Assembly (NCBI RefSeq): GCF_003334315.1
Contig: NZ_QOWR01000055.1
Direction: 5' to 3' (one strand)
DNA: 30,752 nucleotides
From: Escherichia coli
GTDB taxonomy: Bacteria; Pseudomonadota; Gammaproteobacteria; Enterobacterales; Enterobacteriaceae
Shown here: piece by piece, positions 11,016 to 16,008 of the stretch
Layout of the letters: every line of letters starts with the position of its first letter
Numbering within the stretch: the stretch's first letter is position 1
Translations under genes and position numbers: made by a program
Notes under the pieces: model-generated
Database searches by the model: none
What the model was told of the DNA's origin: nothing
What the model saw: only the letters and a program-made list of their open reading frames with translations

Positions 11016-11566
11016 AATAAAGAAAACCTTTTAACGCCAAAACAAAAAAGTATTTCGTCGCGTAGTGTAAGCGATCACTTATTATATTTCCACAAAATTT
11101 AATCTATTTACAGTCCTGCGCGAGATTATTTCAGCTGTTATTTTCTGAAACTCTCAGAATAATTTCAAGATTATATATTAGCCATTTTGATGAGTAATTT
11201 AGATTATTGGTGAACAGAACGGCGCTCTCTGCTCGCTAATTCCGCAAGCCTGACAAAACCGAAGTGAATAAAAATGCAATATAACAGAATAAAAGAAAAC
11301 ACCCCTCACTGGTGCTTTCTGCTGTTAATGTACATTTTCTGGCATAAAAAATACTGTAAATGACACGGTCACGACATACACCGAATTCTCTACGCTTATA
11401 GCGTTACCTCACCCCCAAACTTTCATTAGTGAAATTAAAGGAAAGGTCATATCTAATTGATTTAATTGAAAATAAATCATATCGGCATGTAAAAATCCAC
11501 AATGTACAAAAAACGAGCCGTTACGGAATATTTTATCTACAAAAACTGACTAAATAAAAATTTTTC

Positions 11567-11580
11567 ACTAATTGATTAGT
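11567..11580. promoter_or_regulatory. Perfect 14-bp palindrome ACTAATTGATTAGT about 100 bp upstream of alaE; candidate operator
   Basis: Seen directly in sequence inside the 667-bp AT-rich stpA-alaE intergenic region. Function is inferred only. Confidence 0.3.
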
Positions 11581-11682
11581 CATAGCCAGCGATATACGCT
11601 ATGCGAAAATGCAGATGGCAATGAGATCCACTGTTTTCATCTCCATTAACATCCCATTACGCTTTTATTAAGGAGCATTAGC

Positions 11683-12132
11683 ATGTTCTCACCGCAGTCA
11701 CGCTTGCGTCATGCAGTTGCAGATACGTTCGCGATGGTTGTTTACTGTTCTGTCGTGAACATGTGTATTGAAGTTTTCCTCTCCGGAATGAGCTTCGAAC
11801 AGTCTTTTTATTCCAGATTGGTAGCGATTCCGGTGAACATCTTAATTGCATGGCCATACGGTATGTACCGTGATCTGTTTATGCGCGCGGCACGCAAAGT
11901 TAGCCCGTCGGGCTGGATAAAAAATCTGGCGGATATCCTGGCTTATGTGACGTTCCAGTCACCGGTGTATGTGGCGATCTTGTTAGTGGTGGGCGCAGAC
12001 TGGCATCAGATTATGGCGGCGGTCAGTTCAAACATCGTTGTTTCGATGTTGATGGGGGCGGTTTATGGCTACTTCCTCGATTATTGCCGCCGACTGTTTA
12101 AAGTCAGCCGTTACCAGCAGGTAAAAGCCTGA
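11683..12132 (+). CDS. alaE: L-alanine exporter AlaE (YgaW)
   Basis: 149-aa ORF, membrane protein; RBS aaggag 6 bp upstream of ATG. Confidence 0.9.
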
Positions 12133-12143
12133 CTCTTCTTTTC

Positions 12144-12170
12144 GCGACTGGCATCGCCAGTCGCGTCTTT
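12144..12170 (+). terminator. Hairpin terminator candidate after alaE, overlapping the 3' end of convergent ygaC
   Basis: Perfect 8-bp stem gcgactgg/ccagtcgc with 5-nt loop, followed by gtcttt; located 12 bp after the alaE stop. Confidence 0.45.
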
Positions 12171-12513
12171 AACTGGCTTCGCCAAATAAACCATTCAAAT
12201 AACGTTCAAGCGCAACACGCGAACTAAAGCCATGCGGGATACCGTAATGCTCGTGTCGCTCGCCTGCTAAATAGAGCGGAAATTGCTGGTAATGATCGCA
12301 AGTTTTAATATCGGAAGCGGGTTCAGCCAGTGTCGAACTGCGTTCTTTTAATGTTGGATGAATTACCAGAGCGGTACGTCCCATTCGCGCTTCGCGATTA
12401 ACATAGACATAATTTTCCCCACGGCGGTAACCATACGCTTTCTGGGTTACCACATCGACAGTAAAACCGACTTTTTCAAGTACGCGCGCCACCTCGTCTG
12501 GTCGTAAATACAT
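12169..12513 (-). CDS. ygaC: Uncharacterised protein YgaC
   Basis: 114-aa minus-strand [42 protein letters not shown]...; conserved position between alaE and ygaM. Confidence 0.88.
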
Positions 12514-12664
12514 ATTTGATCCTCGTTATTATCAACCGCGGGCCTACCTTACCTGATTGCGCATTCACAACGCTTTCAGAAAAGTCCATAAAGCCGCGAT
12601 GAACCTCAGTTAAGAAAATTATGGTCTACACTGAAAATTACATCGAATTCTAATGGGGGATCAT

Positions 12665-12994
12665 ATGTTTAACCGACCGAACCGCAACGACGTTGATGAT
12701 GGCGTGCAGGATATCCAGAATGATGTCAATCAATTAGCTGACAGCCTCGAATCTGTATTGAAGTCCTGGGGCAGCGACGCCAAAGGGGAAGCTGAAGCCG
12801 CACGCAGTAAAGCTCAGGCATTGCTGAAAGAAACCAGGGCGCGAATGCATGGTCGTACTCGCGTCCAGCAAGCCGCGCGCGATGCCGTTGGCTGCGCGGA
12901 TTCTTTTGTTCGTGAAAGACCCTGGTGTAGCGTGGGTACAGCAGCTGCGGTAGGTATTTTTATCGGCGCACTGTTAAGCATGCGCAAATCGTAG
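12665..12994 (+). CDS. ygaM: ElaB/YqjD-family membrane-anchored ribosome-associated protein YgaM
   Basis: ORF 12653..12994; I prefer the ATG at 12665 (MFNRPNRNDVDD..., 109 aa), but 12653 is possible. C-terminal transmembrane anchor (GTAAAVGIFIGALL). Confidence 0.85.
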   Translation: MFNRPNRNDVDDGVQDIQNDVNQLADSLESVLKSWGSDAKGEAEAARSKAQALLKETRARMHGRTRVQQAARDAVGCADSFVRERPWCSVGTAAAVGIFIGALLSMRKS

Positions 12995-13025
12995 TGCAAA
13001 AATGATAATAAATACGCGTCTTTGA

Positions 13026-13056
13026 CCCCGAAGCCTGTCTTCGGGGTTTCTTTTTG
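13026..13056 (+). terminator. Rho-independent terminator downstream of ygaM
   Basis: Stem ccccgaag (13026..13033) / cttcgggg (13039..13046), loop cctgt, followed by tttctttttg. Confidence 0.7.
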
Positions 13057-13109
13057 CCTGGTGAATCACAAAAATCCCCCTACCCCGTCACGCTCATATC
13101 CAGGGTAAT

Positions 13110-13241
13110 TTCGACCACTATTTGCTATATATTGTGTGGTTGAATCTTTTTTCAACTACATCTAGTATCTCTGTATCAACAGAGAGACAACCCGACGCGT
13201 ATCATCGCGCCGTATCTTCATTTTAAACGGAAATACGAATC
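13110..13241 (+). promoter_or_regulatory. nrdHIEF promoter region with candidate NrdR/Fur operator sequences
   Basis: AT-rich tract ctatatattgtgtgg (about 13125..13139) and actacatctagtatct resemble NrdR-box/Fur-box like repeats; inverted repeat tctctg-N6-cagaga at 13168..13185. Regulation by Fur and NrdR is established knowledge for this operon; exact sites here are inferred. Confidence 0.35.
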
Positions 13242-13487
13242 ATGCGCATTACTATTTACACTCGTAACGATTGCGTTCAGTGCCACGCCACCAAACGGGC
13301 GATGGAAAACCGGGGCTTTGATTTTGAAATGATTAATGTCGATCGCGTTCCTGAAGCGGCAGAAGCGTTGCGTGCTCAGGGCTTTCGTCAGTTGCCGGTA
13401 GTGATTGCTGGCGATCTTAGCTGGTCTGGTTTCCGTCCGGACATGATTAACCGTCTGCATCCAGCGCCACACGCGGCCAGTGCATGA
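13242..13487 (+). CDS. nrdH: Glutaredoxin-like protein NrdH
   Basis: 81-aa ORF with redox motif CVQC ([18 protein letters not shown]...). Confidence 0.95.
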
Positions 13488-13891
13488 GCCAGCTCGTCTA
13501 CTTCTCCAGCAGCTCCGAAAACACGCAGCGTTTTATCGAACGTTTAGGTCTGCCCGCGGTGCGCATCCCGCTCAATGAGCGGGAACGGATTCAGGTAGAC
13601 GAGCCTTACATCCTGATCGTGCCCTCTTACGGCGGCGGTACGGCTGGCGCGGTGCCACGACAGGTAATTCGCTTTTTAAACGACGAGCACAACCGGGCGT
13701 TGCTTCGCGGCGTTATTGCTTCTGGTAATCGCAACTTTGGTGAGGCGTATGGCCGCGCCGGAGATGTGATTGCCCGGAAATGCGGCGTGCCGTGGCTGTA
13801 CCGTTTTGAACTCATGGGTACGCAAAGCGATATCGAAAACGTTCGTAAAGGAGTAACCGAATTTTGGCAACGACAACCGCAGAATGCCTGA
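13484..13891 (+). CDS. nrdI: Flavodoxin-like protein NrdI
   Basis: 135-aa ORF; start ATG overlaps nrdH stop (ATGA at 13484..13487). Confidence 0.93.
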
Positions 13892-16008
13892 CGCAGGAAA
13901 CGATGGATTACCACGCGCTGAATGCGATGCTTAACCTCTACGATAGCGCAGGTCGCATTCAGTTCGATAAAGACCGCCAGGCCGTTGACGCCTTTATTGC
14001 GACGCATGTGCCTCCGAACAGTGTGACCTTCAGTAGCCAGCAGCAGCGCCTGAACTGGCTGGTCAACGAAGGTTACTATGATGAAAGCGTTCTTAATCGC
14101 TACTCTCGCGACTTTGTCATTACGCTGTTTGCCCACGCACACACCAGCGGTTTTCGTTTCCAGACATTCCTCGGGGCATGGAAGTTTTACACCAGCTATA
14201 CGTTGAAGACATTCGACGGTAAACGTTATCTGGAAGATTTTGCCGATCGAGTAACGATGGTGGCGCTGACGCTGGCACAAGGCGATGAGACGCTGGCGTT
14301 GCAACTGACCGATGAAATGCTGTCAGGACGCTTTCAGCCAGCCACGCCAACATTCCTCAACTGCGGTAAGCAGCAGCGCGGCGAACTGGTTTCCTGTTTT
14401 TTGCTGCGTATTGAAGACAATATGGAGTCGATTGGTCGGGCGGTAAATTCCGCACTGCAGCTGTCGAAACGCGGCGGCGGCGTAGCATTTTTGCTGTCGA
14501 ATCTGCGAGAAGCGGGCGCGCCAATTAAACGTATTGAAAATCAATCTTCTGGCGTAATTCCGGTGATGAAAATGCTGGAAGACGCATTTTCCTATGCCAA
14601 CCAACTCGGCGCTCGTCAGGGGGCTGGTGCAGTCTATTTACATGCTCATCATCCCGATATTCTGCGTTTTCTCGACACGAAACGGGAAAATGCCGACGAA
14701 AAAATCCGCATTAAAACACTGTCGCTTGGCGTGGTGATCCCGGATATCACTTTCCATCTGGCAAAAGAGAATGCGCAGATGGCGCTGTTTTCGCCTTATG
14801 ACGTAGAGCGAGTTTATGGCAAGCCGTTTGCCGATGTGGCCATCAGCCAACACTATGACGAACTGGTTGCCGATGAACGCATTCGCAAAAAATACCTCAA
14901 CGCCCGTGATTTCTTCCAGCGACTGGCAGAAATCCAGTTTGAGTCCGGCTATCCCTACATCATGTATGAAGACACGGTAAACCGTGCTAACCCTATCGCC
15001 GGGCGCATAAATATGAGTAATCTCTGCTCAGAAATTTTGCAGGTTAACAGCGCCTCAGAGTATGACGAGAATCTCGACTATACCCGCACAGGCCATGATA
15101 TTTCCTGCAATTTAGGTTCGTTGAATATTGCGCACACCATGGATTCCCCCGATTTTGCCCGCACGGTAGAGACTGCCGTGCGCGGTTTAACGGCAGTATC
15201 AGATATGAGTCATATCCGCAGCGTGCCGTCCATCGAAGCCGGAAATGCCGCCTCGCACGCCATCGGACTGGGGCAGATGAATTTACACGGCTATCTGGCG
15301 CGAGAAGGCATCGCTTATGGTTCGCCGGAAGCACTGGATTTCACCAATCTCTATTTCTATGCCATCACCTGGCATGCACTGCGTACCTCGATGTTGCTGG
15401 CACGCGAACGCGGTGAAACCTTCGCCGGGTTCAAACAGTCACGCTATGCCAGTGGTGAATATTTTAGCCAATATCTGCAAGGGAACTGGCAGCCGAAAAC
15501 GGCGAAAGTTGGCGAACTGTTTACCCGTAGCGGTATTACGTTACCTACCCGTGAGATGTGGGCGCAGCTGCGCGACGACGTGATGCGCTACGGCATATAC
15601 AACCAGAATCTTCAGGCGGTGCCGCCAACCGGTTCTATCTCTTATATCAACCATGCTACGTCGAGTATTCATCCGATTGTGGCGAAAGTAGAGATACGCA
15701 AAGAGGGCAAAACAGGACGCGTTTACTACCCTGCCCCGTTTATGACTAACGAGAATCTGGCGCTGTATCAGGACGCTTACGAAATTGGCGCAGAAAAGAT
15801 CATCGACACCTACGCGGAAGCGACTCGCCATGTCGATCAGGGGCTGTCGCTGACGCTTTTTTTCCCCGATACCGCCACCACTCGCGATATCAACAAAGCG
15901 CAGATTTACGCCTGGCGCAAGGGTATCAAAACGCTCTATTACATCCGCCTGCGTCAGATGGCGCTGGAAGGCACTGAAATTGAAGGCTGCGTCTCCTGTG
16001 CACTTTAA
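13864..16008 (+). CDS. nrdE: Class Ib ribonucleoside-diphosphate reductase alpha subunit
   Basis: 714-aa ORF, ribonucleotide reductase large subunit with C-terminal CxxC-type tail (CVSCAL); overlaps nrdI by 28 nt. Confidence 0.96.

What the first reader, a model, noticed from the sequence alone, without database searches (positions are those of the whole stretch)
12144..12170. alaE terminator hairpin sits on the 3' end of convergent ygaC
A perfect 8-bp stem (gcgactgg/ccagtcgc) plus T-rich tail follows alaE by 12 bp and reaches the last codons of minus-strand ygaC (stop at 12169..12171). A shared or overlapping 3' structure for convergent genes is a compact arrangement.
Basis: seen in the sequence. 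Interest (0 to 1): 0.2.

Follow-up and report, generated by a model that had tools for sequence, protein, structure and literature searches.

The report
Shared 3'-end hairpin between alaE and ygaC
A strong, highly conserved hairpin fills the 36-bp gap between the convergent E. coli genes alaE and ygaC and marks the mapped end of the alaE mRNA, but it looks like an ordinary RNA-end-protecting structure working with the Rho terminator rather than a classic self-sufficient terminator.

Summary
It is a perfect 10-bp stem (12143-12152 / 12156-12165) with loop ATC and a predicted energy of about -19 kcal/mol on either strand. About 0.25 such hairpins are expected per shuffled window.

The window is the E. 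coli K-12 stpA-alaE-ygaC-ygaM region. The stem lies wholly inside the 36-bp intergenic gap. Only the weak tail (UCUUUAAC) touches the ygaC stop codon.

Across 80 other Enterobacteriaceae species a hairpin is found at this position in 73. Of the 81 sequences (those 80 species plus the window), 52 keep the identical stem GCGACTGGC/GCCAGTCGC. Loops and flanks vary freely, and four-fold degenerate sites are only about 50% identical. Eight of ten pairs show compensatory changes. A U-tract is not conserved: 31 of 74 pass on the + strand and 8 of 74 on the - strand.

Public data place an alaE 3' end at window 12169, 4 nt after the stem, and a bicyclomycin-sensitive Rho termination region at about 12224 on the same strand. 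I found no ygaC 3' end.

Best reading: this is a shared 3'-end stem-loop. Termination is mostly Rho-dependent downstream, and the hairpin acts as an exonuclease barrier or pause site. It is a known kind of element and of low interest. The unusually frozen stem is a small curiosity.

The parts
11683..12132 (+). alaE (L-alanine exporter) coding sequence; stop codon TGA at 12130-12132
   Evidence: ORF list. Identical to the RefSeq-annotated alaE of E. coli.
12133..12142 (.). Pyrimidine-rich spacer CTCTTCTTTT between the alaE stop codon and the stem. Read on the - strand it is the A/G-rich, U-free 'tail' that follows the hairpin in ygaC transcripts.
   Evidence: Sequence. The - strand tail AAAAGAAG has 0 U. 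Its sequence and length vary between species.
12143..12165 (.). Perfect 10-bp stem (12143-12152 / 12156-12165) with loop ATC. It forms the same hairpin in RNA from either strand.
   Evidence: It is conserved with covariation in 74 Enterobacteriaceae sequences. It is present once per genome in 5421 of 5426 E. coli genomes.
12166..12175 (+). Zone of the mapped alaE mRNA 3' end (dominant position 12169). It contains the weak U-tract UCUUU and overlaps the ygaC stop codon.
   Evidence: TRS re-analysis of Dar & Sorek term-seq data gives chr + 2799647-2799656, dominant 2799650, 'Primary alaE', signal 0.49, significant in 2 of 3 replicates. Coordinate offset.
12166..12243 (+). C-rich, G-poor stretch of the alaE read-through RNA (antisense to the ygaC 3' end). 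It is a candidate Rho loading region, and the reported Rho-termination coordinate 2799705 (window 12224) lies inside it.
   Evidence: C/G = 1.69, about the 95th percentile of 78-nt windows in this window. Adams et al. supplementary file 2 gives -BCM 109 up / 38 down, +BCM 121 / 128, Rho score 3.03, p = 6e-7.
11987..12064 (-). C-rich, G-poor stretch of ygaC read-through RNA (antisense to the alaE 3' part). It is a predicted Rho loading region for the - strand.
   Evidence: C/G = 2.23, 16 YC dinucleotides, about the 99th percentile. This is a prediction only. I found no experimental data.
12169..12513 (-). ygaC (DUF2002 protein) coding sequence. Its stop codon TAA lies at 12171-12169, and the hairpin starts 3 nt after it on the - strand.
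   Evidence: ORF list; RefSeq annotation. In most species the stop codon is 1-4 nt from the stem.

Best explanation
The palindrome encodes one stem-loop that serves as the common 3'-end structure of the two convergent mRNAs, alaE (+) and ygaC (-).

The proposed mechanism has four steps:
1. RNA polymerase coming from either gene transcribes the palindrome. The nascent RNA folds into a 10-bp G+C-rich hairpin, which probably causes a pause.
2. Because a proper U-tract is missing, most polymerases are not released there.
3. They run on into the antisense strand of the neighbouring gene. That RNA is untranslated and C-rich, so Rho loads and terminates within roughly 60-150 nt.
4. 3'-to-5' exonucleases then trim the RNA back to the foot of the hairpin. 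This gives a precise, stable 3' end a few nucleotides after the stem.

A minor share of direct hairpin-dependent termination at UCUUU is possible on the alaE strand.

Shown: the hairpin, its conservation and covariation, the alaE 3' end at +4, and Rho-sensitive read-through on the + strand.

Inferred: exonuclease trimming, pausing, and everything on the ygaC strand.
For: 1. The fold is strong and symmetrical on both strands. It is a perfect 10-bp repeat and is not a chance feature.

2. The alaE 3' end is mapped 4 nt after the stem (peak from +1 to +10) in term-seq data. Dar & Sorek describe exactly this geometry for Rho-dependent transcripts: a stable stem-loop, low U content, no upstream A-tract, and C-over-G enrichment downstream.

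3. A Rho termination region is called on the + strand at window 12224. The downstream/upstream coverage ratio rises from 0.35 to 1.06 with bicyclomycin.

4. Downstream C/G is 1.69 on the + strand and up to 2.23 on the - strand.

5. The stem is under strong selection. The identical 9-bp core occurs in 52 of 81 species, while four-fold sites are about 50% identical. 93% of cells are paired, 8 of 10 pairs show double changes, and 0 of 500 shuffles reach the observed values.

6. The U-tract is not conserved: 31 of 74 pass on the + strand, 8 of 74 on the - strand, and Enterobacter species have non-U tails. The conserved function therefore does not need a U-tract.

7. Wobble pairs are rare in both orientations, 5 versus 4 in the inner nine pairs. 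This is expected if both RNAs must fold.
Against: - The Rho call uses 800-nt coverage windows. The downstream window also contains ygaM with its own promoter, so the bicyclomycin effect is not cleanly attributable to alaE read-through.
- The proximal tail UCUUU (4 U in the first 5 nt) behind a -19 kcal/mol hairpin could support real intrinsic termination.
- The curated Term-seq table of Adams et al. lists no 3' end here in three conditions. This is probably because expression is low.
- I found no 3' end for ygaC, so the - strand half rests on sequence symmetry and conservation alone.
- Exonuclease trimming was not tested.
Confidence: 0.5

Rival explanations
1. It is a leaky intrinsic (Rho-independent) terminator for alaE. 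The hairpin plus UCUUU releases a good share of polymerases directly, and Rho only mops up the read-through. For ygaC it is at most a stabilising hairpin.
For: - The G+C-rich hairpin is strong and 4 of the first 5 tail bases are U.
- The 3' end maps inside or next to this tail.
- In Salmonella, Trabulsiella, Kosakonia and others the + strand tail reaches 5-6 T of 8, and 31 of 74 species pass the simple criterion.
- In Klebsiella the same hairpin carries A5-6/T5-6 flanks, making a textbook two-way intrinsic terminator.
Against: - The E. coli site fails the simple terminator scan.
- The dominant 3' end lies only 4 nt from the stem, closer than the usual 7-9 nt.
- Enterobacter species keep the stem but have non-U tails.
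- Coverage downstream becomes equal to upstream with bicyclomycin.
- The term-seq signal of 0.49 indicates further 3' ends within 67 nt downstream.
Confidence: 0.25
2. It is a collision-type bidirectional terminator element of the kind described by Ju et al. 2019 and Wang et al. 2022. The hairpin only pauses polymerases arriving from both genes, so that head-on collisions, helped by trailing polymerases, occur at a fixed place and end both transcripts independently of Rho.
For: - It lies between a convergent gene pair in a 36-bp gap.
- One palindrome folds equally on both strands.
- It does not resemble an intrinsic terminator. The authors describe such elements as neither intrinsic-like nor Rho-dependent, with the hairpin as a pause signal.
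- Selection for Watson-Crick pairs in both orientations fits two-strand use.
Against: - Rho-sensitive read-through is reported on the + strand, whereas that class is described as Rho-independent.
- alaE and ygaC appear weakly expressed in standard media, since no curated Term-seq ends are listed. Frequent head-on encounters are therefore unlikely.
- I could not read the SEnd-seq tables of Ju et al., so membership of their list is unknown.
Confidence: 0.15
3. The palindrome is a sequence-specific recognition site (a protein operator on DNA, or a protein-bound RNA hairpin), and its position at the gene ends is incidental.
For: The stem sequence itself, not only the pairing, is identical in 52 of 81 species from many genera. 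By contrast, the neighbouring ygaM and stpA terminator stems are genus- or lineage-specific.
Against: - Spacing between the half-sites varies from 3 to 7 nt and the loop sequence is free. This is hard to reconcile with a dimeric DNA-binding protein.
- Several lineages carry entirely different but fully paired stems at the same place: Kosakonia, L043, L076 and L079.
- It occurs once per genome.
- There is no Rfam match.
Confidence: 0.05

Closest known systems
Protective 3' stem-loops of Rho-dependent transcripts (Dar & Sorek 2018, PMC6061677)
   Same: - A stable stem-loop lies immediately upstream of a precise steady-state 3' end.
- The tail is poor in U and there is no upstream A-tract.
- C exceeds G downstream.
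- Read-through on the same strand is bicyclomycin-sensitive.
   Different: - Here one palindrome would serve both convergent genes.
- The role of exonucleases is not tested.
- The + strand tail keeps a short UCUUU run that could give some intrinsic termination.
Bidirectional terminators between convergent genes (Ju, Li & Liu 2019; Wang et al. 2022 bioRxiv 10.1101/2022.10.23.513370)
   Same: A single hairpin-encoding element sits in a short gap between convergent genes. The expected overlap of the two mRNAs' 3' ends covers the hairpin, and the element is not intrinsic-like in sequence.
   Different: - That class is described as Rho-independent and collision-driven, whereas here a Rho-dependent region is reported on the + strand.
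- A - strand 3' end is not documented.
- Both genes seem weakly expressed in standard media.
Canonical two-way intrinsic terminator (A-tract, G+C-rich stem-loop, T-tract)
   Same: The stem is G+C-rich and lies between convergent genes. The Klebsiella orthologue of this very hairpin has A5-6 and T5-6 flanks and fits this class.
   Different: In E. coli the upstream flank is CTCTTCTTTT rather than an A-tract, so the - strand RNA has no U-tract. The + strand tail has only 4 U of 8.

Membership tests
Intrinsic (Rho-independent) terminator | G+C-rich RNA stem-loop | tested here: met
   10-bp perfect stem with 8 G-C pairs; -19.0 kcal/mol on the + strand and -19.4 on the - strand.
Intrinsic (Rho-independent) terminator | U-rich tract directly 3' of the stem | tested here: inconclusive
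   + strand: UCUUUAAC has 4 U of 8 (4 of the first 5) and is not called by the consensus scan. - strand: AAAAGAAG has 0 U, so the feature is clearly not met there. It is not conserved across species.
Intrinsic (Rho-independent) terminator | Termination independent of Rho | tested here: inconclusive
   Literature data give a Rho termination region at 2799705 (+), with the downstream/upstream ratio rising from 0.35 to 1.06 with bicyclomycin. The 800-nt windows include ygaM, so the result is not clean.
Rho-dependent transcript with protective 3' stem-loop (Dar & Sorek 2018) | Precise steady-state 3' end immediately downstream of a stable stem-loop | tested here: met
   + strand only: the dominant 3' end is at window 12169, 4 nt after the stem. 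I found no - strand data.
Rho-dependent transcript with protective 3' stem-loop (Dar & Sorek 2018) | Reduced U content, no upstream A-tract, and C-over-G enrichment downstream | tested here: met
   The upstream flank is CTCTTCTTTT. The tail has 4 U of 8. Downstream C/G is 1.69 on the + strand and up to 2.23 on the - strand.
Rho-dependent transcript with protective 3' stem-loop (Dar & Sorek 2018) | Read-through increases when Rho is inhibited | tested here: met
   Adams et al. supplementary file 2: Rho score 3.03, p = 6.2e-7 on the + strand, with the ygaM caveat noted above. The - strand is not listed.
Rho-dependent transcript with protective 3' stem-loop (Dar & Sorek 2018) | The 3' end is generated or stabilised by blocking PNPase/RNase II | not testable with these tools
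   This needs pnp/rnb mutants or in vitro degradation assays.
Bidirectional terminator of convergent genes (Ju et al. 2019) | A single hairpin element between convergent genes, usable on both strands | tested here: met
   The arrangement is conserved in all 80 species loci.
Bidirectional terminator of convergent genes (Ju et al. 2019) | Mapped, overlapping 3' ends on both strands | tested here: inconclusive
   The + strand end is present. No ygaC end appears in the Adams tables or in the readable TRS sheets. The SEnd-seq paper is not held.
Bidirectional terminator of convergent genes (Ju et al. 2019) | Independence from Rho and dependence on convergent transcription | tested here: inconclusive
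   The Rho-sensitive region on the + strand argues against Rho independence. Dependence on convergent transcription cannot be tested here.

The most novel reading that the evidence does not exclude
The stem is 'frozen' in sequence across more than ten genera because it has to fold in the transcripts of both strands. A G-U intermediate on one strand is a C-A mismatch on the other, so the usual stepwise route of compensatory evolution is closed. Two-way hairpins would therefore evolve more slowly than one-way terminator stems. If this holds generally, stem conservation combined with a lack of wobble pairs could be used to recognise hairpins that function on both strands from sequence alone. A less likely variant is that an unknown factor reads the GCGACTGGC stem sequence.
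Probability: 0.3. Interest if true: 0.35.

Novelty: new member of a known kind. Interest (0 to 1): 0.15.

Why it matters
It matters little beyond annotation. The finding gives a defined 3' boundary for alaE, and probably for ygaC, in the best-studied bacterial genome. It also shows that 'hairpin after a gene' should not be read automatically as an intrinsic terminator. Here the conserved part is the stem rather than the U-tract, and Rho appears to do the releasing.

The one point of wider interest is evolutionary. The stem is far more conserved than the stems of the neighbouring ygaM and stpA terminators. This suggests a testable rule about constraint on hairpins that are used from both strands.

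Tried and rejected
- **Rfam.** A permissive scan of 10000-14500 gave only chance-level hits, and nothing real over the hairpin.
- **Repeated or mobile element (REP/MITE-like).** Rejected. There is exactly one copy per E. coli genome, always at alaE-ygaC.
- **Dimeric DNA operator.** Judged unlikely because arm spacing varies from 3 to 7 nt and some lineages carry unrelated paired stems.
- **Attenuator-like alternative pairing.** The arms 12149-12161 and 12172-12184 are only 77% complementary. This pairing is much weaker than the main stem, is absent from the minimum-energy folds, and is specific to Escherichia.
- **Which strand's RNA is selected.** I tried to decide this from the G-U versus A-C asymmetry. 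There is no asymmetry (5 versus 4), so the test gives no answer except that both orientations avoid non-Watson-Crick pairs.
- **Data sources that led nowhere.** The SEnd-seq paper of Ju et al. is not held. No supplementary files are held for Dar & Sorek 2018, BacTermFinder, Conway 2014 or Nadiras 2018. Full-text searches for ygaC/alaE with terminator terms found nothing specific.

Full report
**Locus.** The window around the finding is the E. coli K-12-type stpA-alaE-ygaC-ygaM-nrdHIE region.
- alaE is at 11683-12132 (+).
- ygaC is at 12169-12513 (-), with its stop codon at 12169-12171.
- ygaM follows on the + strand.
- MG1655 (NC_000913.3) coordinates equal window coordinates plus 2,787,481.
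- The two genes converge on a 36-bp gap, 12133-12168.

**The observation.**
- The inverted repeat is real and longer than reported. It is a perfect 10-bp stem, CGCGACTGGC (12143-12152) / GCCAGTCGCG (12156-12165), around the loop ATC.
- As RNA it folds to -19.0 kcal/mol on the + strand and -19.4 on the - strand, with z-scores of -6.8 and -6.2. None of 200 shuffles fold as well.
- Three distinct perfect hairpins of at least 10 bp with 3-8-nt loops occur in the window (raw count 4, one hairpin scoring at two loop lengths), against a raw count of 0.25 expected in dinucleotide shuffles.
- The 'T-rich tail' is weak. TCTTTAAC has 4 T of 8, and the consensus terminator scan calls this hairpin on neither strand, although it does call the nearby ygaM terminator.
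- On the - strand the hairpin is followed by AAAAGAAG, which has no U.
- The stem lies entirely in non-coding DNA. Only tail bases 12169-12170 fall within the ygaC stop codon.

**Comparative evidence.** One scan of species-representative genomes with AlaE returned 80 Enterobacteriaceae loci.
- All 80 have ygaC convergent on alaE, usually with a 30-38-bp gap.
- A hairpin at the homologous place is found in the window and in 73 of the 80 loci.
- Of the 81 sequences (the window plus 80 species), 52 carry the identical 9-bp core GCGACTGGC/GCCAGTCGC. These include Escherichia, Citrobacter, Salmonella, Enterobacter, Lelliottia, Leclercia, Pseudocitrobacter, Yokenella and Raoultella.
- Loop length (3-7 nt), loop sequence and both flanks differ freely.
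- In the species that keep this core, four-fold degenerate sites of alaE and ygaC are only about 51% identical to E. coli (range 33-84%). Neutral retention of 18 stem bases is therefore excluded, at 1e-6 or less for the ten most diverged of those species.
- Other lineages have different but paired stems: Kosakonia GATGGCAGGC/GCCTGCCATC and GGCGGCAG/CTGCCGCC, L043, L076 and L079.
- On the alignment, 93% of cells pair, against 24-49% when partners are slid. Eight of ten pairs show changes on both sides, and no shuffle out of 500 reaches the observed pairing or covariation.
- As a local control, the ygaM terminator stem is conserved only within Escherichia, and the stpA terminator stem is lineage-specific. 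This stem is therefore unusually frozen.
- Non-Watson-Crick pairs are rare and symmetrical. In the inner nine pairs, five would be wobbles only on the + strand and four only on the - strand.
- The U-tract is not a conserved part of the element. By the scan's criterion, 31 of 74 hairpins pass on the + strand, 8 on the - strand and 5 on both. Enterobacter species keep the stem with non-U tails. Klebsiella has added A5-6/T5-6 flanks, producing a textbook two-way intrinsic terminator.
- Within E. coli the 37-nt element occurs exactly once per genome in 5421 of 5426 complete genomes, and it is at least 99% identical in 5371 of them. It is not a dispersed repeat.
- Rfam has no family for it.

**Experimental data in the literature.**
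1. The TRS paper (PMC10687069) re-analysed the term-seq data of Dar & Sorek. It lists a + strand 3' terminus at 2799647-2799656, dominant 2799650, classed 'Primary, alaE'. The mean signal is 0.49 and it is significant in two of three libraries.
   - The row must belong to the 'E. coli - Dar and Sorek' sheet. That is the only stored sheet with the matching annotated column layout for E. coli K-12.
   - In window coordinates the end is at 12169, 4 nt after the stem.
   - The signal measures ends at the site relative to ends in the next 67 nt. Further 3' ends therefore exist just downstream.
2. Adams et al. 2021 (PMC7815308) list no curated Term-seq 3' end at 2799xxx in LB OD 0.4, LB OD 2.0 or M63. 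Their table of Rho termination regions has an entry at 2799705 (+), antisense to ygaC, which is window 12224.
   - Coverage in the 800 nt upstream and downstream is 109 / 38 without bicyclomycin and 121 / 128 with it. The Rho score is 3.03 and p = 6.2e-7.
   - Caveat: the downstream window includes ygaM and its own promoter.
3. No ygaC 3' end is listed in any table I could read.

**Sequence features relevant to Rho.** The first 78 nt of + strand RNA after the hairpin have C/G = 1.69, about the 95th percentile for this window. On the - strand, C/G reaches 2.23 with 16 YC dinucleotides at +79 to +156 (window 12064-11987), about the 99th percentile.

**Interpretation.** The anatomy and the data fit the class described by Dar & Sorek. 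In that class, Rho-dependent transcripts have steady-state 3' ends lying immediately after a stable stem-loop. The stem-loop lacks a U-rich tail and an upstream A-tract, has C exceeding G downstream, and blocks 3' exonucleases.

I therefore take the hairpin to be the shared 3'-end structure of both convergent mRNAs. Polymerases mostly pass it, perhaps after pausing, and are released by Rho in the untranslated antisense stretch of the neighbouring gene. The RNA is then trimmed back to the stem.
- Shown: the structure, selection on the structure, the alaE end at +4, and Rho-sensitive read-through on the + strand.
- Inferred: trimming, pausing, and the entire ygaC half.
- Confidence is about 0.5.

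**Rivals.**
- **Leaky intrinsic terminator for alaE (about 0.25).** UCUUU behind a strong hairpin may release some polymerases. Many relatives have better tails, and Klebsiella has a canonical two-way version. Against this, E. coli fails the scan, the end is closer to the stem than usual, Enterobacter lacks U tails, and bicyclomycin equalises coverage.
- **Collision-type bidirectional terminator of Ju et al. and Wang et al. (about 0.15).** The position and the non-intrinsic look fit. However, that class is described as Rho-independent, both genes appear weakly expressed, and I could not read the SEnd-seq tables.
- **Sequence-specific binding site (about 0.05).** This is suggested only by the frozen stem sequence. 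It is contradicted by the variable arm spacing and by lineages with unrelated paired stems.

These readings are not mutually exclusive.

**Novelty and interest.** Hairpins shared by convergent genes, and hairpins that cap Rho-dependent transcripts, are both well documented in E. coli. The alaE 3' end and the Rho region are already present in genome-wide tables. This is an ordinary member of a known kind, so interest is low.

The one curiosity is the exceptional sequence conservation of the stem relative to neighbouring terminators. It comes with symmetrical avoidance of wobble pairs. A plausible but untested explanation is that a hairpin needed on both strands cannot evolve through G-U intermediates.

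Noticed in passing
window 12147-12159 and 12172-12184: Direct repeat ACTGGC[A/T]TCGCCA with 12 of 13 bases identical. The second copy is the last codons of ygaC (GEAS, read on the - strand) and can itself form a small 5-bp hairpin in the - strand fold. It also allows a weak alternative pairing with the 3' arm of the main stem (77% complementary). It is seen only in Escherichia-type sequences and could be chance or a trace of how the palindrome arose.
   Followed up: partly
L069, L080, L081 (Klebsiella oxytoca, K. michiganensis, K. spallanzanii), alaE-ygaC gap: The same hairpin core carries A5-6 upstream and T5-6 downstream, which makes a canonical two-way intrinsic terminator. It has an A-C mismatch on the + strand that is a G-U wobble on the - strand, so the fold is better for ygaC transcripts.
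   Followed up: partly
L077 (Leclercia sp. MAG), alaE 3' end: The conserved hairpin GCGACTGGC-TAA-GCCAGTCGC has the alaE stop codon as its loop, so the 5' arm is coding sequence there. In L047 and L063 a different hairpin overlaps the ygaC stop codon instead.
   Followed up: no
L045 (Kosakonia arachidis, 178-bp gap), L078 (Raoultella terrigena, 109 bp), L076 (78 bp): In these species the otherwise 30-38-bp gap is expanded by extra DNA downstream of the hairpin. The L045 insert folds into a long structure (about -85 kcal/mol for the region), which may indicate an inserted small repeat element.
   Followed up: no
window 13072 (-), MG1655 2800553, ygaM-nrdH intergenic region: Adams et al. list an abundant 'orphan' - strand Term-seq 3' end here (about 25,000 reads in LB OD 0.4), ending ...GACGGGGTAGGGGGATTTTT. 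This suggests a short, unannotated transcript divergent from or antisense to the nrdH leader. The ygaM terminator 3' end at 2800533 (+), which is window 13052, is also listed.
   Followed up: no
window 1181-1208, 8885-8905, 23971-23994, 26786-26809: Other perfect hairpins of 9-11 bp in the window: TATCTGCCCCG/CGGGGCAGATA, CCCGGATAA/TTATCCGGG, GGCCAGCAT/ATGCTGGCC and AAGCCAGTTC/GAACTGGCTT. They are probably further terminators or 3'-end structures.
   Followed up: no
window 12166-12168 and homologous positions in L002-L081: The hairpin sits 1-4 nt from the ygaC stop codon in most species, while its distance from the alaE stop codon varies from 4 to 14 nt. A ribosome terminating on ygaC would have to melt the 5' arm of the hairpin in ygaC mRNA. 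Whether this spacing is selected or is just a result of compaction is unknown.
   Followed up: no
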